From a virus: a stretch of DNA of 64,000 nt. The stretch lies in the IMG/VR virus record IMGVR_UViG_3300048575_000082, positions 36,916 through 100,915 of that record; one strand, given 5' to 3'. The number at the start of each line of letters is the position of its first letter. Within the stretch, counting starts at the first letter, position 1. The position numbers and the translations under genes are program-made. Under the pieces are notes generated by a model. It saw nothing but the letters and a program-made list of their open reading frames with translations. It did no database searches and had not been told where the DNA came from. Positions 4,122 to 47,833 of this stretch are shown piece after piece.

Positions 4122-4820
4122 TTAGGTAGCCTTCCAAGAGAGGGCCGACGCTTGACGTTGGCCTGCACGCTGTTGTAGCAGATAGATGTTCTCTTCGTGC
4201 TTGTCGGCGATGCCTTGCAAACGGTTGTCTACACCGAGACTCAAGAGACCGGACTTCTCCAGACCGGCGTAAGCGAGGTGCAAGAGCACCATGAAGCCAT
4301 ATTCGGCTCGCAAGCTAAGATTGACGTACTGCTGGGGGTTGGGGTCCACAGGGGCTCCCGAATAGAGCCACTTGAGCACCATGAGCTGGTGCGTCGAAAC
4401 GACGATCGGCTGAACCAAGAGGTGGGGTCCAAACCCGACGGCCTTCTCGGCGATCCCGTCGACCTCACCGTCAACGTTGCCATAGATGCGCTCGAACAAG
4501 AGGTGGTCACCGTAGTAGGTCACCCCACGCGTCTGCCAATGGTGGGATTGATGAACGACCGCAAGGGCCTTGAGGGCGGATAGCAGAACGCCCAGCTCGG
4601 CGGCTGGAGCCCCCGCGTACCCATTGAGCATCGAATTGAAAAGCGCCTGCGCATCCGAAAGGGACTCTTCGGACGCCTTGCGCATCATGTTTGCCACTGC
4701 TGCATTCTTGATTCGCATAGCTAGCCTCATCGCGGGCAAGTAGGGTGGCCCGTGCTGAAGGGGATCGTAGCCGGTGGGATCATCCCAAACCGGATCAAGG
4801 GTTCCAGCGGATTTCGACAT
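4122..4820 (-). CDS. Ferritin/Dps-like four-helix protein (DUF5856-like)
   Basis: VHQSHHWQTRG...DHLLFERIY...D.IAEKAVG...LQGIADKHEENIYLL pattern. Confidence 0.6.
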   Translation of the reverse strand: MSKSAGTLDPVWDDPTGYDPLQHGPPYLPAMRLAMRIKNAAVANMMRKASEESLSDAQALFNSMLNGYAGAPAAELGVLLSALKALAVVHQSHHWQTRGVTYYGDHLLFERIYGNVDGEVDGIAEKAVGFGPHLLVQPIVVSTHQLMVLKWLYSGAPVDPNPQQYVNLSLRAEYGFMVLLHLAYAGLEKSGLLSLGVDNRLQGIADKHEENIYLLQQRAGQRQASALSWKAT

Positions 4821-5205
4821 TCTTGCCAGCCTTCTGGATGAGGTGGTCTACCCAACCAAGGGCAGCGCTGTAATCGCTGAAGGTTGCGGTCTTGAAGGTT
4901 GCCTCACCGGGGAGGCGATACTCCAAGCGCGATCCCTCTTCGCCAGCCTTCTTCTTCGCCTTGGCGGCTTCTTGATCCTTCTTGACTTCCTTACCCACGT
5001 CACCGAGGGAGGACTTCTCAGGCTTGGCGGCGAAAGACTTGCCAGTGAAGGGGCTCTTGATCGAGGTTTGCTTGGACTCCGTCCAGAAGTCCTTACCCGT
5101 CTCAGGGCACGTGTACTTGTAGAGGATCGCCGCTGCCGTCCGTGGGGCTGTCGCGGTCACGATGTTCTCTGCTTGGTGGATGAGGCTAGCTTGACGAGGG
5201 TGCAT
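4795..5205 (-). CDS. Hypothetical protein; C-terminal module shared with 12703-12906
   Basis: AGGAG RBS before MHPRQAS; YTCPETG...SPFTG motif; C-terminal LEYRLPG...VEIRW. Confidence 0.55.
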   Translation of the reverse strand: MHPRQASLIHQAENIVTATAPRTAAAILYKYTCPETGKDFWTESKQTSIKSPFTGKSFAAKPEKSSLGDVGKEVKKDQEAAKAKKKAGEEGSRLEYRLPGEATFKTATFSDYSAALGWVDHLIQKAGKNVEIRWNP

Positions 5206-5240
5206 GATCTCTCCTTGCTTCAGGACGAGACTCAAGAGGT

Positions 5241-8096: not shown

Positions 8097-9041
8097 TTAC
8101 GCGCCTGCTTCGTTCATCATCTTCTCGATCCGGTTGGTCAAACCAACGAGGCCCTTGACCCAGTCGATGAATTGGTTGAACCGATCGGCGAGGTAGTTCC
8201 ACGCCTTGGTGAGGGTGTCCATGAGGCCCGCTTGCTTGTAACCAGAGAGGCCCTCGGGGTTGAAGTAACCCTCGGGAAGGGGAACGCCCTCTTCAACGCG
8301 GTTGATGGCAGCCTGGACAGCTTCCAACACCTGCTTCTTGTCGAATTCCTTGAGGGCGAGGAGGAGCATGAATTGGAACTCCTTCTCGAATTCGATCGTC
8401 GGGACCTTGCTCTCGTTGTAGCGGCGAACCTGGACATCTAGTTCACCGAGGCTCTTGCGGGCCTTCTCGAGCTGGTCAATGTGGGTATTGAAGTCGCGGC
8501 GGGCGCCTTCAAGCCACTTCTGCCGTTGAGCGACGCCCTTTTCGCTCTTGGCTTCAGCAAGTCCCTTGATGTGCTTGTCGATCAGCTCCTGGGCTTCGGC
8601 GACCTTCTTCTCGTAGTGGGCAATCCAGAGCTTCCAATCGTACGTCGATCGGCCGACCTGGTCGAGGAGCTGCTTGCTCTTGAGAGTCTCCTTGACCCAA
8701 TCCTCGATCTGCTCGCCGGTCTTCGCCGCCCACTTGCCTGCGCCGCCCTCACCACCAAGAGCTTCAATGTACTTCGGAGGCAAGGTGATGTTCATCTTGG
8801 CGCACTTGTTTCGCCAATGCTGGACGGTCGCTGCCCAAGACTTACCGTTCTTGGGGTCGAATCGCTCTCCCTCGTATTCAACGACGTACTTCCAGATGTT
8901 CAGGCATTCAACAGGCAACTCGCCGGAGTCGACACCTTGAACGATCTCCTTTGGAGGGGTGTAGCGAGAGTCGGCTGCTTCGATGGGGCGATGGGCCGCC
9001 AGATAGCGACGAAGGACATTCTTGGCGATGGTATCACGCAT
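8097..9041 (-). CDS. Hypothetical helical protein with N-terminal KNVLRRYLAA tag
   Basis: 314-aa ORF, GGAG upstream, preceded by TTTCTTTTATAG motif. Confidence 0.6.
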   Translation of the reverse strand: MRDTIAKNVLRRYLAAHRPIEAADSRYTPPKEIVQGVDSGELPVECLNIWKYVVEYEGERFDPKNGKSWAATVQHWRNKCAKMNITLPPKYIEALGGEGGAGKWAAKTGEQIEDWVKETLKSKQLLDQVGRSTYDWKLWIAHYEKKVAEAQELIDKHIKGLAEAKSEKGVAQRQKWLEGARRDFNTHIDQLEKARKSLGELDVQVRRYNESKVPTIEFEKEFQFMLLLALKEFDKKQVLEAVQAAINRVEEGVPLPEGYFNPEGLSGYKQAGLMDTLTKAWNYLADRFNQFIDWVKGLVGLTNRIEKMMNEAGA

Positions 9042-12702: not shown

Positions 12703-12906
12703 TTAACCCTTCGGCCACCGAACTTCAATGTCCGGGGCATCGCCTTCTTGCTGCTTCTCAACCCACTTCTTCGCGGCTTTCTCGTCCTTGAAAGACTTCG
12801 TCTTCCACCCGCCCTTACCAGGGATGCGGTAGCGGATCTCGTAGTCCCCCGAGGCATTCAGGTACCTTGCAACAATCCTTCGGGCCATCTCATCACGTGC
12901 AGACAT
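12703..12906 (-). CDS. Small protein with RRIVARYL tag
   Basis: GAGG RBS; MSARDEMARRIVARYLNAS, then a YEIRYRIPG...IEVRW module. Confidence 0.6.
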   Translation of the reverse strand: MSARDEMARRIVARYLNASGDYEIRYRIPGKGGWKTKSFKDEKAAKKWVEKQQEGDAPDIEVRWPKG

Positions 12907-12916: not shown

Positions 12917-13255
12917 TCAACGCAGCTCTCGGAGGACGTCCCCGAGAAAGTCTCGAATACGTAAGGCTTTACGCTTGCCGTCCTTGTCGGAATCAAGCGC
13001 AAGGTAGTCGATCAAGTCGGCTACCTGCTTGCTAGCTTGTTGGACATCTTTCTTCTCGACAGGCTTCTTGGCCTTGAGATTGTCCAGCACGCCAAGGAGG
13101 GTCGGTGCGGCTTCCTTCACGTCGGATCGATCGAAGTTTTTGAGGGCATACGCGGACTCCTCCGAGTAGAAATCCGTGTTCTTCAAGCCCTTATTCGTGG
13201 TCGCCGCCGAAAGGTAACGTGCTACAACGCGTTTTGCCACTGCTGATCTGTCCAT
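12917..13255 (-). CDS. Small protein with KRVVARYL tag
   Basis: ATG overlaps the upstream TAA (TAATG); MDRSAVAKRVVARYLSAA. Confidence 0.6.
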   Translation of the reverse strand: MDRSAVAKRVVARYLSAATTNKGLKNTDFYSEESAYALKNFDRSDVKEAAPTLLGVLDNLKAKKPVEKKDVQQASKQVADLIDYLALDSDKDGKRKALRIRDFLGDVLRELR

Positions 13256-14061
13256 TAGAACCATCCTCGTTGCCGTGTACAGGTCGGCGGGGGCGACCCG
13301 GCTGCGATTGCATCTTGTATCATGAAGCACATAGCCTCTTCAAGTACAGGACCACCATAAGTAAGCTGGTAGCGCCAAACAATCCGCCACCGGCCCGGCT
13401 GACCCCCGTCCCCAGCGATACCCGTGGCGTAGTACTCACCAATGTCGCCTTGAGCTGGGTAGCGATCAGAAGGACCGATTAGCTTCGGAACACACCCAGG
13501 GAGCCCTTGATAGAGCGTGTAGGTCACACGGTAGGGGGAGATCGCGCCTTTACCGATCTGCGTGATCCAGATCCCCAAGTCACCTCGTTGCAGCATCTGC
13601 CCAAGGCGCAAGGTTCGGATCGAAGACTTGCAGCTCAGAGGGGCCGGAACGCGAACAACCTCAAGGTAGGCAGAGAGGTTGCAGCCACAAATGATGGGCA
13701 TTGGCTGCGCGTACGTTACAAGGGACGTCCCAGAAATATGCCCGTGCAGCATACGCGATCGGTGCAGAACTGCCGTAGTAGACCCTACACCGATGATGGC
13801 ACCCGAGAGATTGGTCTCTCGCAAGGATAGCGTGCCCACCCCATGAATGTTCCCGGAGACGATGACGCTTCGATACGGTGCCGCCCCTTCTACGTCGGCG
13901 CTCCCCAAGATAGCTCCTTGCAAGCGATGCCCAATGTACGCGGTGCTTGGCAGGGAGGCTAGTCCGTTCGCGGATCCTACCAATCGGTGAAGGATACTCC
14001 ACGAGGGCGGCGGGAGGTTGGCCTCGCCAAGGATGTCTCCTGAGAGGAGGACGTCAGCCAT
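13255..14061 (-). CDS. Hypothetical virion protein (Gly-rich repeats plus Ig-like C-terminus)
   Basis: 268-aa ORF coupled to both neighbours by 1-nt stop/start overlaps. Confidence 0.5.
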   Translation of the reverse strand: MADVLLSGDILGEANLPPPSWSILHRLVGSANGLASLPSTAYIGHRLQGAILGSADVEGAAPYRSVIVSGNIHGVGTLSLRETNLSGAIIGVGSTTAVLHRSRMLHGHISGTSLVTYAQPMPIICGCNLSAYLEVVRVPAPLSCKSSIRTLRLGQMLQRGDLGIWITQIGKGAISPYRVTYTLYQGLPGCVPKLIGPSDRYPAQGDIGEYYATGIAGDGGQPGRWRIVWRYQLTYGGPVLEEAMCFMIQDAIAAGSPPPTCTRQRGWF

Positions 14062-19919: not shown

Positions 19920-20860
19920 CAGAGAGCCCTTTCAAGGGTCACAACCGCTTGCTTGATGTGCCCCCCGGGAGTGTAGCCCACACTCATGGCCTTCGCGAGA
20001 GCCTTTAGCCCACGAACAAACTTACCTCCCCCAAGGTTTTCTGTGCGTGCCAGGCTCTCAACCTCACGGTAAATGTCTGCGATGACATCAGCACGCTTCA
20101 CGAATCTGGACAAGGCGTCCTTCGTAACACCGATCCGCTTCAGCTCATCCTTGGCGACGTCATCGAATCGCAGGGCCGCCGTCTTGAATTCCATTACCCC
20201 CATATTCTGCACGCCCTTGAGCTTACCTACAAAGGGGTAGGCCATCTCCAAGGTCTCTTGGATGGCATTCCGTAGGGGCGTTAGCGATGACCGTACTGCA
20301 AAGGATGAGGTCTCCTTGGTCCACCTTTCAATCTGACGGAGGTCTTCATTCAGCCCATCACAAGCCTTGTCCAGCTTACCTTGAAGACTCTTCAAGGCTT
20401 CAAGGATCTCCCTGACCTTACCCGCGATAGAGGGGTCCTTAACCGCTTGGAACCGAAGAGCCACGCGTGTACTGATCATGAGAGACCCTAACTTGGACAC
20501 AGCATTATGTGTATTGGGGATGCCGTCACGGTAGGGGTACTTGGTTTTGGAGGTATCTTGTGGACCAGGGGCTCCAAAACCGATCCCATCGTGATGGTCG
20601 GCATTATCTTCTCTGGTGTCCACACGGTCACGATCCTTGGTGAGATCGTCAGGACCGTCAACCCGCTTGATGGGCTCGTCGTCCTTTCGGTCCTCCCGTT
20701 TGTCGTCAACAGGTTTGGCAAACGTCGCGCCCCCGGGGATCCCTGGGTCTACGGGCAAACCCTTGTCGGTAGGCCCACCCTGGGGGAGCTTGGACTCCCC
20801 CACAGGCGTTGCTGGGCGGCCGGTGCCGTAAGGCGGGCGGGATACTAGCGGGCTGGTCAT
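19919..20860 (-). CDS. Hypothetical two-part protein (disordered N-half; RVALRFQA tag then helical C-half)
   Basis: TAATG coupling; internal Met at 20479 precedes the tag. Confidence 0.55.
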   Translation of the reverse strand: MTSPLVSRPPYGTGRPATPVGESKLPQGGPTDKGLPVDPGIPGGATFAKPVDDKREDRKDDEPIKRVDGPDDLTKDRDRVDTREDNADHHDGIGFGAPGPQDTSKTKYPYRDGIPNTHNAVSKLGSLMISTRVALRFQAVKDPSIAGKVREILEALKSLQGKLDKACDGLNEDLRQIERWTKETSSFAVRSSLTPLRNAIQETLEMAYPFVGKLKGVQNMGVMEFKTAALRFDDVAKDELKRIGVTKDALSRFVKRADVIADIYREVESLARTENLGGGKFVRGLKALAKAMSVGYTPGGHIKQAVVTLERAL

Positions 20861-26339: not shown

Positions 26340-27221
26340 TTAGAAGCGGTTGACGACGATGCGGGTGAGGCCGCGAGGGTTGAAGGCGCCGATGCCGATG
26401 TTCTGGAAGCAGGAGAACCCAATCGTGCGCGCCTTGGGGTCGTCTGCCGAAAGGACGGTCAGCTCGGTACGGACCGGGAAGCGTCCGAAGTTCTCGGGCT
26501 CTGCGCAGAGGTACACGAAGCCGACCGGAACCAGACGGCTGGTGATGATCTGTGCGCCCCAGAGGGTCGCCTGAAGACCTGTCTTGAGCAGCGTGGCCTG
26601 GCTCTCGATGTCCAGGATGTCGCGACCGAACTTACGAATGTCGGCGTAATCGACGGCATTCATATAGATGCGGGCAACGCGCAGGTCGTGACGCTCGATC
26701 TCGGCGAACGCGTCGGCGAGGATCGAGGGGCTGATCGGGGCAACAACCGCGAGGTCAGGGTTCGTTCCGCCCGGAAGCGTATCGAAGCCGCTGACGGCGA
26801 TCGAGTCGAGAACCGCAAAGACGCGCTCGTCTTCGGCGGCCTGGATCTGGGCCTTCGCCAGGTCCTGAGCACGTTCGATCAGGTCGAAACGACGCTCCTT
26901 GATCTGGGTGAGGGGGATCTCGGGGTTCGAGGCGATCTCGAACAGCGGGAAGATGACGCGGCGTGGCTTCTGGATCGCGAGGATGTTCTCGCCTTCCTCA
27001 CCAACCACGAATGCGGTGACGTCCGGATCCTTGTCGTAGATCGGGAGCGCTCCATCGGGAAGCTGCTCGACCAAGAAGGTCTTGCGGCCCACGGCGGTGT
27101 AGTCACGACGCAGCCGGAGAGGCTGGATCATGGAGGCGGCGAGCTTGGCGCGACCCGCAGCGGTCTTGATGTACTCGCTGATGATCTGCTGCTTGATCTC
27201 GTTGGAAACTTGAGTCGTCAT
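26340..27221 (-). CDS. Major capsid protein (probable HK97 fold)
   Basis: About 293 aa; GGAGG RBS; very strong C/G-ending codon bias; follows the protease, scaffold and decoration-like genes. Confidence 0.75.
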   Translation of the reverse strand: MTTQVSNEIKQQIISEYIKTAAGRAKLAASMIQPLRLRRDYTAVGRKTFLVEQLPDGALPIYDKDPDVTAFVVGEEGENILAIQKPRRVIFPLFEIASNPEIPLTQIKERRFDLIERAQDLAKAQIQAAEDERVFAVLDSIAVSGFDTLPGGTNPDLAVVAPISPSILADAFAEIERHDLRVARIYMNAVDYADIRKFGRDILDIESQATLLKTGLQATLWGAQIITSRLVPVGFVYLCAEPENFGRFPVRTELTVLSADDPKARTIGFSCFQNIGIGAFNPRGLTRIVVNRF

Positions 27222-27251
27222 GATATCCTCCAAAAAGTCCTGTTTCGAGCC

Positions 27252-27960: not shown

Positions 27961-29295
27961 TTACCGCTTGGTAAGACCGAACGCCTCGCTCACGTCTGGT
28001 GCGCTGGCCCACAAGGAGGACATACGATCGACGTCTGATCCCGCCTTGGGTGCTCCGACTCCACCACCACCGATGCGGCTAACGCCACCCGAGGGGCGCG
28101 TTCCGACCGTGCGGGTCGAGGCGGTGCGAACACTTGCCTGCTTCTGCTGGCCTTGGTCACCCTGCCCCTGGATCTGCTCCTGGGCTTGGGTTTCTTCGTT
28201 GGCGAAGAGGCTCATCAGGACGTCGTCTTCGGGGCCAAGGGCCACGTCGCCGGTATCCATGATGGGGGTCTCAAGCTCAATGCCGAGGTCGTCGGCAACG
28301 GGCTCGGGATTGATCTCGATGTCACCGAGCTGGCTGACCTGCTGTTGGGTCTGGACCTGTTGCTGGGCCGGGGGCACCTGCTGTTGGGTCTGGACCTGTT
28401 GCTGGGCCTGCATAGCCTGCTGGACGGCTTGCTGAACCATCTGGGCGATCTGGTCTTGGCTGACTTGAACCTGCTGGGTCTGAACCTGCTGCTCAGCCTG
28501 CTTCTGGCCTTCGCCTTGATCGTCCTTCTTCTCTTCGTCTTGGGCCATCTTGCCACAAGCCTGGGGACATTGCTGCGCCTGGGCTTGCTGCTGAGCCATC
28601 TGCTGCATCGCCTGGGCGACCGCTTGCTGGATCTGGGCCTGAATGTCTTGCTGCGAGACCTGCTGCTGTTGCGCTTGCTGACCTTGCAGGCTGACTTGCT
28701 GTTGAACGTCGGCTTCCTTCTTCTCGCCTTCGTCCTTCTTCTCGTCGTCCTTCTTGGCCTCGGCCTCTTCCTTCTTCTTCTCGGCGTTCTCCCGGAATTG
28801 AGGGGGCATCTGACCGGCTTCCTTGTCCTGCCCATCATCCTGCTGAGCCTGACCCTGCTGCTCGTCGGCGAGGCGGGTATAGGTCTCGATGAGGTCGTAG
28901 TCAGGGAGGTTCATCAGCGCGGCGGCCTGGTCCTCAATAGCGGCCTCGGTCGCGGTCTTGCGGAGCATGAGAGAGGCGACGCGAACGCAGAGGTTTGCCT
29001 TCTTGATGAGGGTCTCCTCGTCAAGGGCGGCAGTCTTTTCGGGATGGTTGAAGGTCTCGGCGCGGAATTCGGGCATACCGATTTCGTTGCGCGCAACCTG
29101 GCCGCCCTTGTACTCGTCTTCCCACCGATTGGTCTTGTCGACGTCTTCAGCGAAGGACGATGGGGTGCCCGTGGTGTAGTCGGTAGCGCCGGGTTGCTGT
29201 TGTACGTGGTTCTGGTTCATCAGGGTCGGATCCGCCTTACGCTGCATTGCAGCCTGCCGGATCTGGTCTCGATTCCAAGTTGTGCGCTCGCGCAT
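27961..29295 (-). CDS. Putative scaffolding protein (Q/E/K-rich, low complexity)
   Basis: Lies between protease and capsid genes; QQQVQTQQQV repeats; frequent K-x-A motifs. Confidence 0.55.
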   Translation of the reverse strand: MRERTTWNRDQIRQAAMQRKADPTLMNQNHVQQQPGATDYTTGTPSSFAEDVDKTNRWEDEYKGGQVARNEIGMPEFRAETFNHPEKTAALDEETLIKKANLCVRVASLMLRKTATEAAIEDQAAALMNLPDYDLIETYTRLADEQQGQAQQDDGQDKEAGQMPPQFRENAEKKKEEAEAKKDDEKKDEGEKKEADVQQQVSLQGQQAQQQQVSQQDIQAQIQQAVAQAMQQMAQQQAQAQQCPQACGKMAQDEEKKDDQGEGQKQAEQQVQTQQVQVSQDQIAQMVQQAVQQAMQAQQQVQTQQQVPPAQQQVQTQQQVSQLGDIEINPEPVADDLGIELETPIMDTGDVALGPEDDVLMSLFANEETQAQEQIQGQGDQGQQKQASVRTASTRTVGTRPSGGVSRIGGGGVGAPKAGSDVDRMSSLWASAPDVSEAFGLTKR

Positions 29296-29341: not shown

Positions 29342-30877
29342 TCACGAACCCGCGTCATACAGGCGACCCTTCTGGAGTAGGGTCTTCGACTCAATGTCCG
29401 TGAGGTCTCGCCCAATGTGTTGCTTGCAAGCAGCCAAAAAACGCTGATCATTCCCAAATCTTGCGGGGCCACCAACCGCAAGAATGGTCCGGTAGAGCCT
29501 AGCCTCACCGGCTACAAACCCTCGACGGGCAAATGAATCAACGAACCGAGAGATCGCCAGAAGCTCCCTCCCAGTGAATTGCTGCGCCGCCGTTACGGTC
29601 CGCCAGCCGCCATGCTTGTAGAGCATGAGGCCCTCAAGCATTCGCTTGGATAGGACACGGTTGCGCGTTCCGGCATAGACCACCTTAGCGATCTCGTGCC
29701 AGACGTAGTTACCGGCTGACTTGATCAGCCCGTCATTGGTGCTCTCATCCATGTTGTGGATGCGATTGGCGTCGTCCTTGCCCATCTCACCACGAACACG
29801 CTCGATGACCTTCTCATGCACCGTGTTGACTAGATCATCGACCACCCTCTTGAGGGGGTCTGCAGGAGCCTTGGGAGCCTCTGCTGGGGCGCCTCCTTGG
29901 TCAAACCCATCATCGAAGGCGAGATTGGTTCGAGGGGCACGCGGGGGTGTCAGAAAGAGAGATGCCTCATGGGCAAGCTGCCGGTCCCTCTCAAGGTATG
30001 CGGACGTCGCGCTTGCCGCACGTTGCAGCATTGTAGGGTCTGCTGTGCGGGCCGGTGTAGAGAAGGCTACCTGCACACGCTGTCCGATCCCTGCAATCTC
30101 ATCGGGGGTGAGGATGCTGCGAAGCACCGCCCCGGTAAACGCAGGGTTCGCAACCCAGGAGGCTTCGATGAACTTGACGCTCCCAGGCTCCGCCTCACGG
30201 TGACCACAAAGCTCCGCAATACGACGGCGGTTACCAAGCTCGTCAATCCATTCGTTGCCCTTGAGGTAACGAACGTGGGGGCATAGCTGGGGCTCGTCCG
30301 CCGCAACGTTGCCGCACTTGGTGCAGATGGTGAACTCTACCGAGCACCCCATCGACAGGGTCTGCAAGCGGCCGGTGGTGATGGCGCTGATGAGGTCCCG
30401 ATGCTTACGGTTCGTCGCGACGAGGATATCGATGTAGATCGAGTCACCAATGTCACGGCTTGCCGCATCGATGATCTTGCCCTTCGAAAGCTCCGGGATC
30501 TGGATGTGTTCGACGTAGTTTTCGCCCCCAACGAATGTCTTGAAGCTCGACAGCAAGAGCCGCCGTTCCCAGCAATCGTTGTTGTTGTTGATGTACTTCG
30601 TCGTGTCCGGGGATACGAGCCAATCGGCGTACTTGCGGGTGATCTGGAACCCATCGACCATCTGCCCGCCAAGGGGTGCCTTCGACTCCTCCGTATCCAC
30701 CGACGCAATGATCGTGCAATGTGTCAGGAGGAATTGCTTAGGGTCGTACTCCTCCAGGATGACCTTGTTGGCCGTCTTGGAAAAGACAGGCTGCCCCGCG
30801 CCGCGAAGGCTTGTCCAAGCGTCCGTAGACACCAGGGGCTTGACGACAGCGGCATTGGCGTAGCGTAGGAAGGCCAT
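29342..30877 (-). CDS. Putative prohead protease (HK97/assemblin-like) with Cys-rich insertion
   Basis: YVEH...SKGKI, LSMGC and FIEASWV.NPAF.GA motifs; position upstream of scaffold and capsid. Confidence 0.65.
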   Translation of the reverse strand: MAFLRYANAAVVKPLVSTDAWTSLRGAGQPVFSKTANKVILEEYDPKQFLLTHCTIIASVDTEESKAPLGGQMVDGFQITRKYADWLVSPDTTKYINNNNDCWERRLLLSSFKTFVGGENYVEHIQIPELSKGKIIDAASRDIGDSIYIDILVATNRKHRDLISAITTGRLQTLSMGCSVEFTICTKCGNVAADEPQLCPHVRYLKGNEWIDELGNRRRIAELCGHREAEPGSVKFIEASWVANPAFTGAVLRSILTPDEIAGIGQRVQVAFSTPARTADPTMLQRAASATSAYLERDRQLAHEASLFLTPPRAPRTNLAFDDGFDQGGAPAEAPKAPADPLKRVVDDLVNTVHEKVIERVRGEMGKDDANRIHNMDESTNDGLIKSAGNYVWHEIAKVVYAGTRNRVLSKRMLEGLMLYKHGGWRTVTAAQQFTGRELLAISRFVDSFARRGFVAGEARLYRTILAVGGPARFGNDQRFLAACKQHIGRDLTDIESKTLLQKGRLYDAGS

Positions 30878-35300: not shown

Positions 35301-35516
35301 TTGACTCAAGCCTAGAAAGCGGCGCGCCACACGGGCCGCCAGGGAGGCATCCTTGTCGGCGTCCCTGTCAGGATCGTCTTCCTCAACACGCTCCCGGCGT
35401 AGGTCATGCCGGGGCGGCTTCTGCTTAGGGGCCGGACGGACGAGGCGCTCTGCCTCGTCTTGATCACGCTCGTAGTTGTCCTTGGTCGCGGTGCGCATGT
35501 GACCAACCCGATTCAT
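32346..35516 (-). CDS. Large multi-segment head-region protein (about 1056 aa)
   Basis: Start moved to MNRVGHMRTA because the track start overlaps the portal; RVARRFL tag; P/K/E repeat; internal Met starts at 33095 and 32714. Confidence 0.6.
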   Translation of the reverse strand: MNRVGHMRTATKDNYERDQDEAERLVRPAPKQKPPRHDLRRERVEEDDPDRDADKDASLAARVARRFLGLSQDQRVPAWNKTDKVMVMVSPRTLKENPGQYEPYDADKHEAPESEGKPEAPNGEDAPKDKEAPKGEADYAAAGKELYDQAKKDPILSKVLKQFANPKNELKDAIEDSPDMPLTALFGNREFPGGLKTIKDLFEAARSAGPAPKEAPKAEAPKSEEPPKGAESKGEESPKGDAPKNPEPPKSEEAPKSSEPPKSEEPPKGEAPPKSEAPKSEAPPKSDAPKGDEPKSEAPKSEEPPKSEAPKSDAAPKEEAKPEKKTKIPEGAPPPPEEDYTEEDYDEAMSEAMDNLPLHMIGDITAANLHPNEIREIVKQHTAFLKHPMTPSSRASFIQDARGSFSLDPLAVRPPTLVGGVPFDNLDPDKKAAAMQQHRMKVFTKSLIARDMMVDSFGEAGIPPDLALGVADFHLRHNPAETSQERDKRAKEAADDVFEQALSSGKLTKISEGKIRAAFKLCGTDDSAVSRLITSYYQANDYHLAKEKFLSSGSDDSFTEHSTPKEIINGLLKSDKFFAERAKSYPPDAIQHDMARAFKTRVLARLKTVDPDKYRVVRDEMAARDAEQYKKDYPQYVKDFKQWQRDKAKYDKAQAKAKEKFDKEQEQYENDLAEWKHNVQMYYEVAQIERPTREKLHELPALDMTPPKAPVMPDLGLEPREPPKPPMPLGYVQNLTDESEIDKVRKTLWDPKTEAAEAEKARKEQARLEAEVARKERLEAAKEEARMRAEKAKKTKTGDFIYPRGTSMKTAVYNGIAPYHTNEAYVPWTQAQQRDITAADLDLILKEARSWLQQTVLKENYEGAPRDAQLRAALDLAIRTTKDGFYSVGFPPPVYEDLLRRLAGVGNTGTLLTVATSAYNPGGEQNAHIQREANMSIKLAAKTADTVLARLDHIAGQIEKKYAQMGIPFEVAKAIVNDLDRVADEVEVGSFGEASFQRRQAEVIQRDADEGYMDTFKNPMAPIQTDADEPYMSAYKDDQTSAVNHGQSTTGRPLAP
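34540..34880 (-). repeat. Coding tandem repeat (KSEAPK/KSEEPPK/KGEAPPK units)
   Basis: Recurrent ctcttggg/ggggggct units on the plus strand; boundaries approximate. Confidence 0.75.
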
Positions 35517-35526
35517 AGGCAGAATC

Positions 35527-37335
35527 TCAGAACCGGCCCTCCTCTTGGGGCTCATCTTTGACCTTGAGGCCGAGGTACTTGGCCATCTTGTCGAGGATGT
35601 CGGTCTTCTCTGCCAGCATTCGGCCAATCTCACCGTAGAGCGACCGGATGACCTCGTTGAAGGTCGAGTCGTTGACGGTGAACATGTCCTTCTGGATCTT
35701 CTCTTGCGTATCCATCGGGTCGAGATTGAACATCTCGAGAATGACGTCGACCGAAACGCTGCCCTTCGTGTAGAGGTTGTAGAGCGCGTCGAAGGTGTCT
35801 TGGCTGTCACGTAGGGGGAGCCGCGTGAAGCTGAGGCGCGGGTAAAGCACTACCTCTTCGCCCCACTTGTTCTTCTCGACAAACCCCTTGCGGCGGGCAA
35901 CGGGCTCGAAGAGGTACTTCTCAACGTACTCCTGAATGACCTCACGGAGGAAGAGGTATCGGGTGTTGATGACTTCGAGCTTGAGACGATCTCCTGAATA
36001 GAGGGCCTCGCCGCTCATGAGGCTCTCGGTCACACCGAGGCCCGAAAGAAGCTGACGCTCCGTCTGCTCGTACTCCCCGGAAAGGTCAAGAAGCCGATCG
36101 CGGCTGCTCTGCTCTTCCCAGTGAATCTCGTAGTTCGTGACAATCGAATAATCAGGGTCGACAAGGGACAGGTCGACCTGCTCACGAAGGTCCTCTGTGT
36201 CCATATCCGAAAGGCCCTCCGCCCAAACAAGGCGTCGGGGGGTCATGGCCCGGCTGGCGATCTGGGTCTGAGCTTGGCGGAGCTTGTCACGGTAGTAGAG
36301 GACCCGAAGGCATCGGTCGAGGATGCTGTGGCCAAGGGCCTCATCCGCCCCATGGCGGGCCTTGAGGTGATAAACGAAGCTCCCCTCATCGGGATCCGTC
36401 CCAAGGGGGATGAGGTTGCCCAGCTCAAGATGCTCACGGACCTCATCGGGGATCTCTTGGACCATCTCCATGGCGACCGGGTCGCCCATCTTGGCTTGCT
36501 CAATGAGGGCGCGATCGTTCGAGGAGGGTATGAGATTGACCTTGACCTTGTCCGTGAAGGAGAAGGTCTTGACATCGACCTGGTCAATGGGGAGGATGAT
36601 AAGGCGCTCCCACCCCTGGTAGTGCTTCTGATAGTAGGCAAGCTCGGCATCCTCGCGATCGGGGCGCTCAACCCAATTCTCGATGTGGCGCTCTTCGGCG
36701 CCACGTGCCTCGGTGTAGACCGACTCAACGGAGATCTTGCGATCATAGCCGATATTCTGGGGGACCTCGACGGTGCTATCCTCGGCGAAGAAGTGCACGT
36801 TGCCGTCAAGCCAGTAGTGGTGGACGCCCGTGATGAGCCTCTGGAATAGCTTGATCCGGTCACACATGCGCTGGAAGAAGAAATGGATGTACTTGCCGTA
36901 GTCATCCGGGCTTTCGTAGCCCTCGGGGCAAGTCGTAGGGCGCGGCGGCGCGAGGCGAACCTTTGAGAGAGGCAGCTCCGTGTGGAGGTCAATGGCTTGA
37001 CCTACCAGCGGCTCGCTGTTGTAGAAGTGACGGTAGATCTCGCGGCGTTCACGCGCGCTTTGCGGTAGCTCGAGGAAGTCGGTTGAGAGCTGGGGCGAGA
37101 AGAAATTCGACGTCCCGCTCATCGTGGTGTTGGCGCCTGCCAAGCTCTGCGTCGGGAAGCCGTAGGAGCTAGCTTCCTTCTGCATCTTGGCGATACGCCT
37201 GACTTCACGCTCCTTGGGCGTGAGCCCTGTTGTGCTGGCACCCTTGGACATGTAAGGGTTACGCGATGTGGGGCGGACGGTCACAAGTGACTCACCGTCG
37301 ATGTGATGCGGCACATTGGTGATCTTGTTAGGCAT
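35527..37335 (-). CDS. Portal protein
   Basis: About 600 aa in the terminase-to-protease block; helical segment ...RHFYNSEPLVGQAIDLH... typical of portals. Confidence 0.7.
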   Translation of the reverse strand: MPNKITNVPHHIDGESLVTVRPTSRNPYMSKGASTTGLTPKEREVRRIAKMQKEASSYGFPTQSLAGANTTMSGTSNFFSPQLSTDFLELPQSARERREIYRHFYNSEPLVGQAIDLHTELPLSKVRLAPPRPTTCPEGYESPDDYGKYIHFFFQRMCDRIKLFQRLITGVHHYWLDGNVHFFAEDSTVEVPQNIGYDRKISVESVYTEARGAEERHIENWVERPDREDAELAYYQKHYQGWERLIILPIDQVDVKTFSFTDKVKVNLIPSSNDRALIEQAKMGDPVAMEMVQEIPDEVREHLELGNLIPLGTDPDEGSFVYHLKARHGADEALGHSILDRCLRVLYYRDKLRQAQTQIASRAMTPRRLVWAEGLSDMDTEDLREQVDLSLVDPDYSIVTNYEIHWEEQSSRDRLLDLSGEYEQTERQLLSGLGVTESLMSGEALYSGDRLKLEVINTRYLFLREVIQEYVEKYLFEPVARRKGFVEKNKWGEEVVLYPRLSFTRLPLRDSQDTFDALYNLYTKGSVSVDVILEMFNLDPMDTQEKIQKDMFTVNDSTFNEVIRSLYGEIGRMLAEKTDILDKMAKYLGLKVKDEPQEEGRF

Positions 37336-43681: not shown

Positions 43682-44068
43682 TCACCCGACAGCCTTGGCA
43701 CCTCCCCCACCCTCGGTTCGAATGAGGTACTGGGAGAGGTTGCGTACGGCGTCATAACCTTTGTCTTTCGGGACTTGCTTATCGAGGGCCTTCTGCAAAT
43801 CGTGCCCCGTTTCCGCGAAGTTGCGGACGCCCATTTGGTTCGGGGTTCCAGCGAAGACGTCTTCAGGTCTAATGTCTCGGCGGTCCGGGGGCACGGTCTC
43901 TTCGAAGTGATCCTCAACGCTCCGTCCATGCTCGTGGACGATGTCGGGGGCAATGCCCCTGGGCTTGTTGATGGGGTGCGTGAGCTTCTTGGCCTCTTGA
44001 CGCGCACCGGGGGCTTGGTTCGCTTGGAACCTGGCAGCAACACGGAGGGCAATGAGGCGAAGATTCAC
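43682..44068 (-). CDS. Small protein with RVAARFQA tag
   Basis: GTG start overlapping the upstream TGA. Confidence 0.55.
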   Translation of the reverse strand: MNLRLIALRVAARFQANQAPGARQEAKKLTHPINKPRGIAPDIVHEHGRSVEDHFEETVPPDRRDIRPEDVFAGTPNQMGVRNFAETGHDLQKALDKQVPKDKGYDAVRNLSQYLIRTEGGGGAKAVG

Positions 44069-46299
44069 AGCTTGATCCCTTGGTTTCCGAATTCGATCGT
44101 CACGTCGATGGGCTTCTGAGGTTCATCGATAACCACCTCTGCCTCACGTTGCGACATCTCGAATTCTTGAAGCATAGCATGGCCGTTGTTTACAAGCCCA
44201 TCGTAACTGATCTCGGTAGCCGGACCAGATGACAGGATCGCCTTCTGCTGGGCAGCCTTGTCTGCATAGTAGGGCTCGCCCAAGGTCTTGTTGAGCTTCG
44301 AGCAGTATCCTGGCTTCGTTTGAAGGATACAGGAGGAGCACTTGGGGCCGGGCTTGACATTCGCCACCAAGCGGCTCCGGTGAAGGCGCATTGCCTCTTC
44401 ACAACCGTGGCCGTAGTCGGCGTAGATCGTGGGGTCGACGTAGTAGATCCCCTGGAGCCCTTGTTCAGCCAGGACCGGCTTGAGGTCGTCCTTGGCGGCG
44501 ATAAGGTCACGGGGATCGAATCGAGCAAGCATGGCCTCACGGAGCTGGTTCCCGTAGAGACCCTCGTTGATGTAACGGGAGGCTGTTCGGACGATCTCAC
44601 GCCGGGTGATGCCCGAGGTGACTTGCCCAACGGGCTGCCCATGGAAGGCCGTCTGGACGTTCAGACGTTCAGACGCTTGGACGCTTGAGGTCCGGTGTTG
44701 CTCGACCGCCGCATGGATAGTCCGTAGCGCAGCGGCTGGGGTCATTTGCATCGGAACCGAATAGACCGGGGAAAGGCGCCCTGCCGTCCGATGCTCTTGA
44801 ATGACGGTGGTGACCGTTTCCGGGGTGAGAATCTCAGAGGCGCTTTGGACCAGGGGCTTACCGTACAGGAGGCATCGTCCGATCTTGTTGTAGATGCAGC
44901 CTGAGCACTTGGCACCAGCAACCAAGACACGGATCCCCGGGTTGTGTCGAGCGAGGAAGTCCGCACCCTCACGGCAATCGCCGAAGCTCTCTTGAGAGGC
45001 ATACACGACGCCGAAAAGTCCTGCCTCACGGAAGACTGGCTCCCAGAGAGGCTTGGACTCTCCAAGGTCACGAACATCGAAAGCTAGGCGGAGGGCTGTG
45101 ACTAGCTCCTTCGGGCCACGTCCCTTGAGCATCTCCCGTCGCAGAAGGGCGATGACCGGGGCGGCACGGCGCTTTGCTGCGAGCTTGTCGGCTGCCTCTT
45201 GGGCCTTGGCGGCCTCTTGGGCTGCCTTCTCTACCCCGGCTTGGGCGGCTTCTGGGGTTGCAACGGCCGGGGGCGCCTGAATGCCTGCGCCGCGATAGAC
45301 GACCCGTTCAACCGGAACGCCCTCTTCCGCTGCCGTCTTGAGGGCTTGGACATGCTCAAGCGTTGTGGCGGCGGCGATCTCCTTGAAGAGACCTTGCGCG
45401 TCCGTCACCTTGAGGCGGCCTGACTTCAAGGAGGTGTCCACCGCTTCTCGAGCGGCCTGCTTCGGTGCCGTGAGGTCCACGGTTACGGCCAACGGAGCGG
45501 GCGTGGAAGCCTGACTCATGAGCCGTGCAGTATTCTCGATCGGCTTGGGCATAGCTGCCGGAGGCGCGATCTTGATAGCTGGGGCGAGGAAGGCTTCGCG
45601 GATACGCTCACGGGCGGTGAGGTTGGGCTGATCCTTGATGTCACGCCCCGCTGCTTTGAGACGGCTTGCGACCTTCTCTGCCAGGGCCTCGGTGTAGGGC
45701 AGCTCAATGACAAGCTGCTTGTGGAATTGGGAGCAGTGACTCTTACCGGCCACCTGTTGGGAGTGGGCACAATCGCGACAGGCTGCCTTGGCGAGCACAA
45801 AGGGAGCGTTGGAGGCGTGCTTGGTGACCAGCTCCAAGCCCTTACCACTTGCGCACCCCTGGAAGTCAGAGGCGTCCACGTAGAAACGCCCAAGGAGTCC
45901 GCGCTCCTCCATGGTGGCCAGGATCTCTTGTGAGGCTGCCGTCAAAGAGTCACGATCGAATCGCTTGACCAGGGCGTCTTCAACACGGGCGGGATCCGTG
46001 GTTTGAAGCAGGGCCAGCTTGACGACCCGGACGATCTCAGCAGGCTTAGCCCGGAGAGCCCCGTGTGTCTTGGAGAGGTCGCCCATTGTCCGTGGGACCG
46101 CCGCCTGATTTGGCTCGAGGTAAGAGGTAGCAGGCTTGTCCTCATGGCTCCACAGGGCTTCCAGATCGGGGGAGATCTGAAGGTTCTGCTCCGGAAGGCG
46201 ATCTTGTTTGCGGTATTCCTGCTCGTCGACATCTAGCCAATCGAGATTCGAAACCCCGCCTTCCTTCAGGAAGTTGTCCAAGTTGCCGAGGTCAGCCAT
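44065..46299 (-). CDS. Large protein with three copies of a Cys-rich domain
   Basis: Start MADLGNLD after an RBS; three ...RFD.RDL...GL.G..Y...C..G...C..C...C units. Confidence 0.6.
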   Translation of the reverse strand: MADLGNLDNFLKEGGVSNLDWLDVDEQEYRKQDRLPEQNLQISPDLEALWSHEDKPATSYLEPNQAAVPRTMGDLSKTHGALRAKPAEIVRVVKLALLQTTDPARVEDALVKRFDRDSLTAASQEILATMEERGLLGRFYVDASDFQGCASGKGLELVTKHASNAPFVLAKAACRDCAHSQQVAGKSHCSQFHKQLVIELPYTEALAEKVASRLKAAGRDIKDQPNLTARERIREAFLAPAIKIAPPAAMPKPIENTARLMSQASTPAPLAVTVDLTAPKQAAREAVDTSLKSGRLKVTDAQGLFKEIAAATTLEHVQALKTAAEEGVPVERVVYRGAGIQAPPAVATPEAAQAGVEKAAQEAAKAQEAADKLAAKRRAAPVIALLRREMLKGRGPKELVTALRLAFDVRDLGESKPLWEPVFREAGLFGVVYASQESFGDCREGADFLARHNPGIRVLVAGAKCSGCIYNKIGRCLLYGKPLVQSASEILTPETVTTVIQEHRTAGRLSPVYSVPMQMTPAAALRTIHAAVEQHRTSSVQASERLNVQTAFHGQPVGQVTSGITRREIVRTASRYINEGLYGNQLREAMLARFDPRDLIAAKDDLKPVLAEQGLQGIYYVDPTIYADYGHGCEEAMRLHRSRLVANVKPGPKCSSCILQTKPGYCSKLNKTLGEPYYADKAAQQKAILSSGPATEISYDGLVNNGHAMLQEFEMSQREAEVVIDEPQKPIDVTIEFGNQGIKL

Positions 46300-47833
46300 T
46301 GTGCGATCCTTCCCGCGTCCGCTGGTATGTCTGGTCCGGACGGTAGTCTCTTGTGGTATAGTCCCACTTGATGTAGGGGTTATCGGTACGTTCGAAGGTT
46401 TGCCCCGTGTTGGGGAGGTCACGATCTGCATTGTAGTCCACCGATTCGTCACCGGGGACTTCGGATTGGCCTACCATGCCCCCTTTGGGGCCTTCGTAGT
46501 AGTCCGATCGCGCAACGGGCGGTTGGTCATCATTGGGCAGCATTGCGTCAGCCCACACATTGCGGTTGGGCGAGACCTGTACTTCGACACGCCGCGTGGT
46601 GTCTGGATGTTCATTGTCATGGGTAGCGCCACCAGGGTTCTTAGGAAGCCCTGAGGCGGGTCCATTGACGCCCTGTTCCCCTGTGTCAGGGTTGGGCTCA
46701 CCGTAGCCGCCTGCGCCTTGTCCGTGGGCGTCGTTGCCGTTACCGTAGCCAATGCCGAAGTCCCAACCTTCGGTCGGGGTTCGCTCCGTATTGGAATCGG
46801 GTACAGCCGAGGCGGCGTCTTTCCGACATGCCGGGCATAGTCCGTAGCGCGTCACCTTGTGGGGGCTCGCGCATCGGCATTGGCTGATGACGGAATCGCA
46901 AACGAGGCATAGCTCGGTGTAGTGGTCAGCCGTCCGGTTGGTGAGGTTAGCCCAATCAGAGGGGTAGGCGTATTCGTTACCAACGCCCTCTTCACGGGAC
47001 CAGTCATCATTGACCGGGGGCTCATTGCGGTTGTAGGTCCCTGCGGGGCCTTGCCCCTCACCAGGGCCGAGATGGTCAACGCGAGGCCCTGGAAGCGTCT
47101 CTACCGGGATGGTGGAGTTGGCCTGCATGTAGAACTTTGCGACCCGCGCCGCCATAGCCCGAACCTCCGGAGGCAAGGCCAATTCTGAAATCGGAACCTC
47201 CGCGTAGAGGCCAGCCGTCTTGGGGAACGTGTTATTGGCTTCGGTCGTTTCCGAAGCTCCGGGGACCTTTGAGGCAGGACCATCGGATTGCGGCGCGTGG
47301 GGTGTCTTGTTGGGACCCTTATCGTTCGCCTCTTCGATCGCTGACATCTCCTCTTCGGGTTCTTCCTCGGGGTTGTCGAGAAGCTTCTGGCTCTCTTCGA
47401 CGAACCGGGAAACGTCCTCGGCGTCGTTCTGGTCGAGTTGCGCAAGACGGGGGCGCCAATGGGGTCCGTTGATCTCGTCGTGAACAGTGTCGCTGATGAG
47501 GGATAGAGCCTCACAAGCCTCGTAGAGCTTCTGACGCACTTCCTTGACGCCCATGACGTAGCCGCGCCCACCGATCAAACCGTCAGGGCTGATCGAGACG
47601 CTCTTGAGCCTGGTGAATTGGCGGTAGGCTGTAAGGGCATGTCCCAAGGAGACGCTCATAGCCCAGAGCATCTTTGCCAGGGGCTTGAGCGCCCTTGGAT
47701 CGTATGGATGCTCCTTGGGAATGTCACGCTTGTGGGCGCTGGCAGGACCTGCGGCACCAAAGGGCTTCGGCGGGAAGGGCATGTCCCCTGCGGCGGTCTT
47801 CAAGCGAACCAAGGTCTTGTCGTGTGCGCCCAC
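46292..47833 (-). CDS. Modular hypothetical head-region protein
   Basis: 513 aa; RVAKFY tag; short Cys-rich module; disordered C-terminus. Confidence 0.55.
   Translation of the reverse strand: MGAHDKTLVRLKTAAGDMPFPPKPFGAAGPASAHKRDIPKEHPYDPRALKPLAKMLWAMSVSLGHALTAYRQFTRLKSVSISPDGLIGGRGYVMGVKEVRQKLYEACEALSLISDTVHDEINGPHWRPRLAQLDQNDAEDVSRFVEESQKLLDNPEEEPEEEMSAIEEANDKGPNKTPHAPQSDGPASKVPGASETTEANNTFPKTAGLYAEVPISELALPPEVRAMAARVAKFYMQANSTIPVETLPGPRVDHLGPGEGQGPAGTYNRNEPPVNDDWSREEGVGNEYAYPSDWANLTNRTADHYTELCLVCDSVISQCRCASPHKVTRYGLCPACRKDAASAVPDSNTERTPTEGWDFGIGYGNGNDAHGQGAGGYGEPNPDTGEQGVNGPASGLPKNPGGATHDNEHPDTTRRVEVQVSPNRNVWADAMLPNDDQPPVARSDYYEGPKGGMVGQSEVPGDESVDYNADRDLPNTGQTFERTDNPYIKWDYTTRDYRPDQTYQRTREGSHNG

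What the first reader, a model, noticed from the sequence alone, without database searches (positions are those of the whole stretch)
4122..47833. Recurring R-V-A-x-R-[YF]-L peptide tag on otherwise unrelated proteins: candidate capsid-targeting address
Seen: KNVLRRYLAA (start of 8097-9041), RRIVARYLNAS (12703-12906), KRVVARYLSAA (12917-13255), TRVALRFQA (near 20479), ARVARRFLG (near 35330), LRVAARFQA (43682-44068), ARVAKFYMQA (near 47140) and the variant VRVASLMLRKTA in the scaffold. The tag usually lies near an N-terminus or a domain start, and the sequences after it are unrelated. Established analogy: T4 internal proteins carry a short capsid-targeting sequence removed by the prohead protease. 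Inference: this may be an undescribed packaging or assembly signal that loads diverse cargo into the head.
Basis: partly seen in the sequence, partly recalled or inferred. Interest (0 to 1): 0.72.

Follow-up and report, generated by a model that had tools for sequence, protein, structure and literature searches.

The report
Portable helix tag on head-module proteins
A fragment of an uncultured giant phage, and its many relatives, carry the same roughly 10-residue helical peptide (consensus A-x-R-V-A-A-R-Y/F-L-x-A) on otherwise unrelated proteins; it is most likely a docking label that loads small charged proteins and counter-defence-type enzymes into the capsid, although no packaging or binding partner has been shown.

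Summary
All eight quoted strings are present. A profile built only from relatives gives 8 hits at score 12 or more in the 136-kb contig, against 0.40 in shuffles. Seven of these lie in true coding frames. Codons differ between copies, so the conservation is in the protein.

The core set is 12703-12906, 12917-13255, 8097-9041, 43682-44068 and the post-portal protein. 46292-47833 is borderline and 19919-20860 is weak. The scaffold "variant" is not a member. Two further N-terminal copies lie outside the window.

The tag recurs across a very large uncultured clade whose capsid protein is over 90% identical while neighbouring proteins are 30-68% identical. It sits at N-termini, at C-termini and in linkers, sometimes several times in one protein. 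In relatives it is attached to 2H phosphoesterases, zincin-like peptidases, a GNAT and a HAD-TopoIB fusion. An AlphaFold2 model shows it as a low-confidence extension outside the enzyme fold. It is absent from the complete genomes of phage G and Tunturi_5.

Best reading (about 0.5): a cargo or assembly docking peptide, functionally like the T4 capsid-targeting sequence. The receptor, any cleavage and actual packaging are unproven. A clade-specific scaffold hairpin and a phage GroEL are alternative hubs.

Earlier scan notes on related genomes proposed a protease cleavage code and one shared N-terminal leader, not this motif.

The parts
12859..12879 (-). Tag core RIVARYL at residues 10-16 of the 67-aa protein 12703-12906 (context MSARDEMARRIVARYLNAS). 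An SD-like GAGGAG lies upstream of the ATG.
   Evidence: Relatives-only PSSM 24.2. HMM E = 7e-5.
13211..13231 (-). Tag core RVVARYL at residues 9-15 of the 112-aa protein 12917-13255 (context MDRSAVAKRVVARYLSAA).
   Evidence: PSSM 24.1. HMM E = 3e-5. No close relatives found in IMG/VR.
35313..35333 (-). Tag core RVARRFL in the large post-portal protein. The ORF 32346-35810 overlaps the portal gene for its first ~94 codons. The true start is the ATG pair near 35496-35514, which puts the tag at about residue 55-60. It is followed by a long PK/E-rich low-complexity linker.
   Evidence: PSSM 22.3. In about 27 orthologues the tag follows a conserved LSLNYKNVGGS.
9000..9020 (-). Tag core NVLRRYL at residues 8-14 of the 314-aa helical protein 8097-9041, which lies just downstream of the connector genes.
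   Evidence: PSSM 12.2. Orthologues at 40-47% identity keep V9, R12 and L14. The AF2 model has a helix at 7-16 followed by coil, at low confidence.
44024..44044 (-). Tag core RVAARFQ at residues 9-15 of the 128-aa, mostly disordered protein 43682-44068, upstream of the terminase gene.
   Evidence: PSSM 12.6. HMM E = 0.024.
47126..47146 (-). Borderline variant RVAKFYM at residue 230 of 46292-47833. It forms an island in a long acidic, disordered stretch, ahead of a Cys4 zinc-ribbon-like segment.
   Evidence: Relatives-only PSSM 10.7.
20447..20467 (-). Weak or possible member RVALRFQ at residue 132 of 19919-20860, directly after the conserved KTKYPYRDGIPNTHNA. Most orthologues have V-A-x-L-W-L-L here.
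   Evidence: Below 8 with the relatives-only PSSM.
28846..29043 (-). Scaffold residues 85-150: a conserved helical hairpin (KKAxLCxxxARxML ... IEDQAxxLMxLPDxxLxxTxxRLA, with the E-D-Q region invariant). It is not a tag. It is a candidate receptor only.
   Evidence: Present in G000 and LR745208, absent from phage G and Tunturi_5.
26340..27233 (-). Major capsid protein (HK97 fold). It is over 90% identical in 556 IMG/VR contigs. Candidate receptor.
29342..30877 (-). Head maturation protease (protease domain about residues 94-258) with a C-terminal extension.
35527..37335 (-). Portal protein. Candidate receptor.
13366..13386 (-). RIVWRYQ in ORF 13255-14061. It matches the pattern but lacks the flanking Ala context, and the ORF has weak coding statistics. 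Doubtful.

Best explanation
The motif is a short linear docking peptide. It forms one amphipathic helix of about three turns, with consensus (L/A)-A-x-R-V-(A/V/L)-x-R-(Y/F/W)-(L/Q/M)-x-A. V, the aromatic residue and L form a hydrophobic stripe, and the two arginines flank it.

It is appended by a flexible linker to the N-terminus of proteins with unrelated folds, less often to the C-terminus or an inter-domain linker, and sometimes in two to four copies.

The most likely role is to dock these proteins onto one common, abundant component of the assembling procapsid. That component could be the scaffold core, the inner face of the capsid protein or the portal. The tagged proteins would then be enclosed in the head and probably leave with the DNA.

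The cargo in this contig is small charged proteins and a roughly 1050-aa low-complexity post-portal protein. In relatives it also includes 2H phosphoesterases, zincin-like metallopeptidases, a GNAT and a HAD-TopoIB fusion. Elsewhere, enzymes of these kinds reach the host as covalent fusions to MuF or portal domains, or as polyvalent proteins.

Shown here: the motif, its statistics, its conservation, its modular placement and its attachment to folded enzymes. Inferred: docking, the receptor, packaging and ejection.
For: Statistics: 8 hits against 0.40 expected with a profile built from relatives only. No extra hits appear in non-coding frames, and codons differ between copies.

Modularity: tagged proteins share only the tag. 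In relatives the tag is N-terminal in 16, C-terminal in 2 and internal in 29 of 47 distinct copies. One protein carries up to three copies.

Selection: the tag is kept in orthologues at 40-47% identity and in about 27 orthologues of the post-portal protein at about 32% identity.

Structure: an AF2 model of a tagged 2H-SAK enzyme from relative L002 has pLDDT above 90 for residues 21-175 and below 50 for tag residues 1-15. The tag therefore lies outside the fold.

Location: 7 of 9 copies lie in the terminase-to-connector head module, which is 29% of the contig. By my arithmetic the binomial p is about 0.004.

Independent genome: in LR745208 (485 kb, capsid protein 83% identical) the syntenic post-portal and pre-neck proteins are tagged.

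Cargo type: 2H/LigT, HAD-TopoIB, four HExxH paralogues and a GNAT. 2H and zincin domains are described in proteins injected with phage DNA (PMC5512222).

Clade-specific: a tag HMM finds 6 hits in G000, 6 in LR745208, 0 in the complete phage G genome and only one antisense chance hit in Tunturi_5.
Against: - There is no virion proteomics, no binding data and no cultured member in the collections searched.
- No protease site consistently follows the tag.
- Two copies in this contig and five of ten in LR745208 lie far from recognisable head genes.
- At least two other clade-specific hubs share the tag's phyletic pattern: the scaffold hairpin and a phage GroEL. Co-occurrence therefore does not single out the capsid.
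- The window's own tagged proteins have no recognisable enzymatic domains.
Confidence: 0.5

Rival explanations
1. The tag is a real docking motif, but for a hub unrelated to the capsid. Examples would be a replication or transcription factory, a membrane or tail assembly site, or a host protein. The tagged proteins would then be co-localised in the infected cell rather than packaged.
For: Tagged genes are scattered over the 485-kb LR745208 genome. Two copies in this contig lie outside the head module on small ORFs of unknown function. Nothing here shows binding to a head protein.
Against: The copies are enriched in the head module in this contig. The tagged proteins are syntenic, next to portal and neck genes, in two genomes. 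No tag occurs in any recognisable replication protein.
Confidence: 0.18
2. The tag recruits proteins to the phage-encoded GroEL chaperonin as a dedicated client or co-factor docking helix.
For: A phage GroEL lies at genome 112707-114365, and a tagged 94-aa ORF sits directly upstream, in the position groES normally occupies. Cpn60 is present in G000, LR745208 and two IMG/VR relatives, and absent from phage G and Tunturi_5. That is the same pattern as the tag. From general knowledge, GroEL binds basic amphipathic helices.
Against: Many tagged proteins are largely disordered or exceed 1000 aa, which is too large for a chaperonin cage. Multi-copy tags do not fit this role. No tagged ORF lies next to GroEL in LR745208.
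Confidence: 0.08
3. The tag is chiefly a recognition or propeptide element for the head maturation protease. That protease is proposed elsewhere in this scan to cut at K/R-x-A|S/A/G.
For: Some tags contain R-V-A-A or R-V-A-S, which fit that code. K-D-A|S lies just before the tag of the post-portal protein.
Against: Most tags (RVVARYL, RIVARYL, RVLARFL, RILDRFL and others) do not fit the code. The K-D-A-S site is not conserved in orthologues. No site follows the tags at a fixed distance.
Confidence: 0.08
4. The tag anchors proteins on the outside of the capsid, for example to the decoration protein.
For: The tags lie in the head module. The decoration-like protein 27252-27878 is conserved, at 62% median identity in the clade.
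Against: The cargo in relatives is intracellular nucleic-acid and protein-modifying enzymes. These make little sense outside a virion. The small, highly charged proteins resemble internal proteins.
Confidence: 0.06
5. There is no common partner. The motif is a favoured helix type or a shared ancestral segment, with no addressing role.
For: It is short and built from abundant residues (A, R, V, L). In the 19919-20860 family the position holds a generic amphipathic helix.
Against: Shuffles give 0.02-0.4 expected against 6-8 observed. PSSM scores are bimodal, with a gap between about 18 and 8. The Arg and aromatic positions are invariant across proteins and genomes. The tag is appended outside a folded enzyme.
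Confidence: 0.06

Closest known systems
Phage T4 capsid-targeting sequence (CTS) of the internal proteins IPI-III, Alt and others
   Same: It is a short peptide shared by otherwise unrelated proteins encoded with the head genes, and it is usually at the extreme N-terminus. The carriers include small charged proteins and host-directed enzymes. The presumed role is recruitment to the prohead interior.
   Different: There is no sequence resemblance, judged from my memory of the T4 CTS and not tested. Here the tag also occurs internally, at C-termini and in tandem. No protease site follows it, so removal is not indicated. The phage is phage G-related with an HK97-fold capsid protein, not T4-like.
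Encapsulin cargo-loading peptides
   Same: These are short conserved peptides, joined by a flexible linker to diverse enzymes, that direct them into an HK97-fold shell.
   Different: Encapsulin peptides are mostly C-terminal, extended and Gly/Ser/Leu-rich, and they bind the shell protein directly. Here the peptide is a basic amphipathic helix, mostly N-terminal, and its receptor is unknown.
MuF/portal-fused effectors and polyvalent proteins of phages (Iyer, Burroughs, Anand, de Souza, Aravind 2017, PMC5512222); P1 Dar proteins
   Same: The kind of cargo is the same (2H phosphoesterase, zincin-like peptidase and other conflict enzymes), as is the head-module context. The proposed outcome, delivery with the DNA, is also the same.
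   Different: Those systems link effectors covalently to a head domain or to each other. Here the enzymes are separate genes, each carrying a short non-covalent tag. No MuF or Dar domains were detected.
C-terminal coat-binding helices of phage and herpesvirus scaffold proteins
   Same: These are short amphipathic helices whose basic residues mediate binding inside procapsids.
   Different: Those are single-copy parts of the scaffold itself. This motif is spread over many non-scaffold proteins. The scaffold here has its own, different conserved ends.

Membership tests
T4-type capsid-targeting sequence | Short peptide at the extreme N-terminus of internal head proteins | tested here: inconclusive
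   Six of nine copies in the contig start at residues 5-10, with SD-like sites upstream. Other copies are internal or C-terminal, and some proteins carry several.
T4-type capsid-targeting sequence | Removed by the prohead protease at a consensus site at the end of the tag | tested here: not met
   No K/R-x-A-[SAG] site lies at a consistent distance after the tags. This is a sequence-level test only; no proteomics is available.
T4-type capsid-targeting sequence | Sufficient to carry a foreign protein into proheads; dependent on the scaffold core | not testable with these tools
   This needs expression and packaging assays.
Encapsulin cargo-loading peptide | Usually C-terminal peptide that binds a pocket on the inner face of the HK97-fold shell protein | tested here: inconclusive
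   The position is mostly N-terminal. Binding to the capsid protein was not tested.
Twin-arginine (Tat) signal peptide | S/T-R-R-x-F-L-K followed by a hydrophobic h-region and an A-x-A site | tested here: not met
   Only RRYL (8097-9041) and RRFL (post-portal protein) have the Arg pair. The sequences after the tag are polar or charged, not hydrophobic.
Short linear motif (SLiM) on disordered or terminal segments | 3-12 specific residues recurring in unrelated proteins, conserved in orthologues while the flanks diverge, and lying outside folded domains | tested here: met
   Flanking low-complexity or disordered sequence is seen.
Phage effectors delivered with DNA (polyvalent or MuF-fused proteins) | Conflict-type enzymatic domains (2H, zincin peptidase and others) encoded in a virion-gene context | tested here: met
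   This holds in relatives only: 2H-SAK, LigT, HAD_SAK_1, Topoisom_I, HExxH proteins and a GNAT, within 10 kb of the capsid gene or in syntenic head slots. The description of the family comes from PMC5512222.
Phage effectors delivered with DNA (polyvalent or MuF-fused proteins) | Covalent fusion to MuF, portal or other effector domains | tested here: not met
   The tagged enzymes are mostly separate ORFs. No MuF domain was detected.

The most novel reading that the evidence does not exclude
A sequence-defined, position-independent cargo address label is used across a very abundant clade of uncultured giant phages. Counter-defence enzymes and internal proteins would be recruited non-covalently into the procapsid by a 10-residue helix that docks on a clade-specific hub. 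One candidate hub is the invariant E-D-Q helical hairpin of the scaffold. This would replace the covalent MuF or polyvalent-protein solution and let cargo be swapped gene by gene.
Probability: 0.4. Interest if true: 0.85.

Novelty: new variant of a known kind. Interest (0 to 1): 0.74.

Why it matters
Targeting peptides that load proteins into phage heads are defined for very few systems: T4 and, in part, P1. None is known for the phage G-like giant phages, which are common in soils and sediments and have never been studied biochemically.

A short recognisable label would have three uses:
- It would allow the injected protein arsenal of hundreds of uncultured giant phages to be read directly from sequence.
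- It would point to a modular, non-covalent alternative to polyvalent effector proteins.
- It would offer a simple handle for loading foreign proteins into very large capsids.

If the label instead addresses another hub, such as the phage chaperonin, it would still define a new phage-encoded interaction network.

Tried and rejected
- Structure-based complex prediction of scaffold residues 1-150 (alignment A4) with the 67-aa tagged protein 12703-12906. The result was 'no answer': score 0.30 against a mark of 0.32, and the controls were not run. It counts neither for nor against binding.
- The capsid protein, portal and GroEL were not tested as partners, because only one complex job was allowed.
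- Nucleotide and scaffold-protein searches of the phage collection found nothing.
- PHROGs and Pfam gave no family for any tagged protein of the window.
- The ESM Atlas gave no usable hit for 19919-20860. For 8097-9041 it returned only coiled-coil look-alikes.
- The AF2 model of 8097-9041 was of low confidence, with mean pLDDT 57.
- IMG/VR held no relatives of 12917-13255.
- Contigs carrying capsid proteins of intermediate identity were too short to test co-occurrence.
- A DNA-level motif was rejected because the codons differ between copies.
- A Tat signal was rejected.
- The scaffold 'variant' was rejected as a member.
- The single profile hit in Tunturi_5 is in the antisense frame of the tail terminator gene.
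- Homologues of the tagged 2H-SAK enzyme appear both with and without the N-terminal tag. The short forms start at a Met inside the tag, so they may be gene-calling choices; this was not resolved.
- Two literature searches found no description of this motif.
Full report
**What the window is.** The window is bases 36916-100915 of a 136,473-bp virus contig with 59% G+C. CheckV rates the contig about 32% complete, so it is a fragment of a genome of roughly 400-500 kb.

Nearly all genes are on the minus strand. Family searches give this layout:
- replication genes above about 48 kb: a clamp loader with an intein, a 5'-3' exonuclease and others
- large terminase with an intein, 39585-42938
- portal, 35527-37335
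- a large ORF, 32346-35810
- head maturation protease, 29342-30877
- a Gln-rich scaffold-like protein, 27961-29295
- a decoration-like protein, 27252-27878
- HK97-fold major capsid protein, 26340-27233
- two phrog_240 head proteins, 15390-15776 and 14061-14444
- head-closure and connector proteins, 11211-12242 and 10445-11386
- tail-side genes below that

The nearest named relatives by capsid protein are an uncultured 485-kb phage (LR745208.1, 83% identity), Tunturiibacter phage Tunturi_5 (48%) and Bacillus phage G (38%).

**Checking the observation.** All eight quoted strings are present in minus-strand coding frames. The pattern R[VI][AV].R[YF][LQ] occurs six times in 21,281 residues of hand-called proteins. 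Per-protein shuffles give 0.02.

A six-frame scan of the whole contig with a looser pattern finds eight hits. All are in real coding frames between window 9000 and 47146. The arginine and valine codons differ between copies, so the signal is in the protein and not in the DNA.

To avoid circularity I built a position matrix from copies found only in other genomes and scanned the contig in six frames. It gives eight hits at score 12 or more against 0.40 in shuffled controls, and three at 16 or more against 0.05. Seven of the eight lie in true coding frames. With the first matrix the scores are bimodal: eight hits at 18-30, then nothing above 8.3.

Pairwise BLAST shows that the tagged proteins share only the 15-22 residues around the tag.

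**Refining the membership.** Robust members:
- 12703-12906 (residue 10)
- 12917-13255 (residue 9)
- the post-portal protein
- 43682-44068 (residue 9)
- 8097-9041 (residue 8)

The status of the remaining candidates is as follows:
- 46292-47833 (RVAKFYM) is borderline.
- 19919-20860 (RVALRFQ) is weak. In about 30 orthologues that position, just after a conserved KTKYPYRDxxPNxHNA, usually reads V-A-x-L-W-L-L.
- The scaffold string VRVASLML is in a different register and belongs to a conserved helical hairpin, so it is not a tag.

Two more copies lie outside the window. Both are N-terminal and on small ORFs of about 93 aa: MNIAQRVAARYAAELA at genome 115361 (minus strand) and MDTNAIAKRVARRYAASLY at genome 135154 (plus strand).

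The long ORF 32346-35810 overlaps the portal gene for its first ~94 codons. Orthologues begin near its residue 105, so the tag sits about 55-60 residues into the real protein.

**Relatives.** IMG/VR holds 556 contigs with a capsid protein over 90% identical. The wider protein collection holds 2021 clusters at E of 1e-10 or better. Neighbouring proteins are only 30-68% identical. The contigs, some exceeding 500 kb, are rated 21-32% complete at 100-155 kb. This is therefore a large clade of giant phages.

The tag recurs throughout the clade. There were 51 pattern hits in 1.07 Mb around the capsid gene, 43 of them on the gene strand. These reduce to 47 distinct copies in coding-like ORFs: 16 within 30 residues of the N-terminus, 2 at the C-terminus and 29 internal. 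Many of the internal ones are the post-portal protein's copy at about residue 75.

Examples:
- MDLARRVAARYLQAA at the start of an 89-aa protein
- ...RRVLERFLHAR-stop at a C-terminus
- three copies in one 1180-aa protein
- four tag-like helices in a 379-aa protein

The consensus from 29 copies in relatives is x-x-x-x-A-x-R-V-x-A-R-x-L-x-A, and both arginines are over 90% conserved. Orthologues of 8097-9041 at 40-47% identity keep V9, R12 and L14 invariant. About 27 orthologues of the post-portal protein keep R-[VIL]-x-x-R-[FYW] after LSLNYKNVGGS.

A profile of the tag finds six hits in this contig and six in LR745208. It finds none in the complete phage G genome. In Tunturi_5 it finds one, which lies antisense to the tail terminator gene. 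The tag is therefore clade-specific.

**What carries the tag.** In this contig the carriers fall into three groups:
- small, highly charged proteins
- largely disordered proteins
- a post-portal protein of about 1050 aa, with a conserved basic N-terminal element (ERLVRPAPKxKPPRxDLRRE), then the tag, then a long PK/E-rich linker

None of them matches a known family.

Relatives are more informative. In LR745208 the ten profile hits include:
- a 2H/LigT phosphoesterase with three tags, in the slot syntenic with 8097-9041
- a HAD plus type IB topoisomerase fusion in the post-portal slot, carrying the same basic element and tags at its C-terminus
- four HExxH metallopeptidase-like paralogues with single or tandem N-terminal tags, scattered over the genome

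Within 10 kb of the capsid gene in IMG/VR relatives there are a tagged 2H-SAK enzyme, a tagged GNAT and a tagged zincin-like protein.

An AlphaFold2 model of the 2H-SAK protein is confident for residues 21-175 (pLDDT above 90). For residues 1-15, which hold the tag, pLDDT is below 50. The tag is thus an appendage outside the fold.

2H phosphoesterases and zincin-like peptidases are recurrent parts of phage proteins thought to be injected with the DNA, where they are often fused to MuF or portal domains (PMC5512222).

**Interpretation.** The anatomy is that of a short linear motif: about ten residues forming an amphipathic helix (hydrophobic moment 0.4-0.57 per residue). It has a V / aromatic / L face and two flanking arginines, sits on linkers or termini, works in any position and number, and is conserved while the flanks drift. 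That points to one common binding partner.

Three things together favour recruitment into the procapsid, as with T4 internal proteins:
- Seven of the nine copies lie in the head-to-neck module of this contig.
- Syntenic head-slot proteins are tagged in a second genome.
- The cargo is of the kind other phages deliver with their DNA.

I put this at about 0.5. It remains an inference, because nothing here shows binding or packaging.

**Open points and rivals.** The receptor is unknown. Candidates:
- the capsid protein, which is extraordinarily conserved
- the portal
- a scaffold helical hairpin (residues 96-142, with E, Q and M invariant in the IEDQAxxLM helix)

The hairpin is the only part of the scaffold besides its ends that is also conserved in LR745208. 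It is absent from phage G and Tunturi_5, like the tag.

A phage GroEL has the same phyletic pattern, and in this contig a tagged ORF sits immediately upstream of it. This gives a chaperonin-docking rival. I rate it low because many tagged proteins are disordered or far too large for a chaperonin.

Earlier notes of this scan on related genomes propose K/R-x-A|S/A/G as the head protease code. Some tags happen to fit it, but most do not, and no such site follows the tags at a fixed distance. T4-like removal of the tag is therefore not indicated.

**Verdict.** In function the nearest known things are the T4 capsid-targeting sequence and encapsulin cargo-loading peptides, but the sequence, the positional freedom and the phage lineage all differ. 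I found no description of this motif in two literature searches.

Noticed in passing
window 26340-27233; loci L001-L080: The major capsid protein is 90-96% identical across 556 IMG/VR contigs and about 2000 protein clusters. The adjacent scaffold, protease, portal and decoration proteins are only 30-68% identical. The genomes appear to range up to about 500 kb. This is unusually strong constraint on one shell protein.
   Followed up: partly
L101:3708-5366 (genome 112707-114365, minus strand; outside the window): The phage encodes a GroEL-type chaperonin (phrog_5725, E = 3e-141). Cpn60 is also found in LR745208 and in two IMG/VR relatives, but not in the complete phage G or Tunturi_5 genomes. 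A tagged 94-aa ORF sits directly upstream.
   Followed up: partly
window 28846-29043 (scaffold residues 85-150): This helical hairpin has a nearly invariant KKA...AR.ML...IEDQA..LM.LPD..L..T..RLA sequence. Apart from the N-terminal RERTTWN and the C-terminal LWxSAPDVSxAFG, it is the only scaffold segment also conserved in the 83%-capsid relative LR745208.
   Followed up: partly
window 35496-35810: The first ~94 codons of ORF 32346-35810 overlap the 3' end of the portal gene in another frame and are not part of the protein. Orthologues start near residue 105. In many relatives the C-terminal ~120 residues form a separate ORF, and in some the protein is reduced to about 366 aa.
   Followed up: partly
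L091:4204-5727 (LR745208.1): The protein in the post-portal slot is a HAD (SAK-type) domain fused to a type IB topoisomerase catalytic core. At its C-terminus it carries the ERxxLVxPxPKxKPPRxDLR element that is N-terminal in this window's post-portal protein.
   Followed up: no
window 19919-20860 and orthologues in L002-L080: A strongly conserved KTKYPYRDG(I/K)PNTHNA(S/A) motif precedes the tag-like helix. The window's copy and L016 share a C-terminal half that differs from all other orthologues, which suggests a module swap at that junction.
   Followed up: no
A5 (L002:11935-12459 and P0271-P0279): Close homologues of the tagged 2H-SAK enzyme are called either with the tag or starting at a Met that occupies the Leu position of the tag (RVVHRF-M). 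This could reflect gene-calling choices, or long (tagged) and short (untagged) isoforms.
   Followed up: no
window 39585-42938 and 51649-54363: LAGLIDADG inteins interrupt both the large terminase and the clamp-loader gene (Pfam Intein_splicing and LAGLIDADG_3).
   Followed up: no
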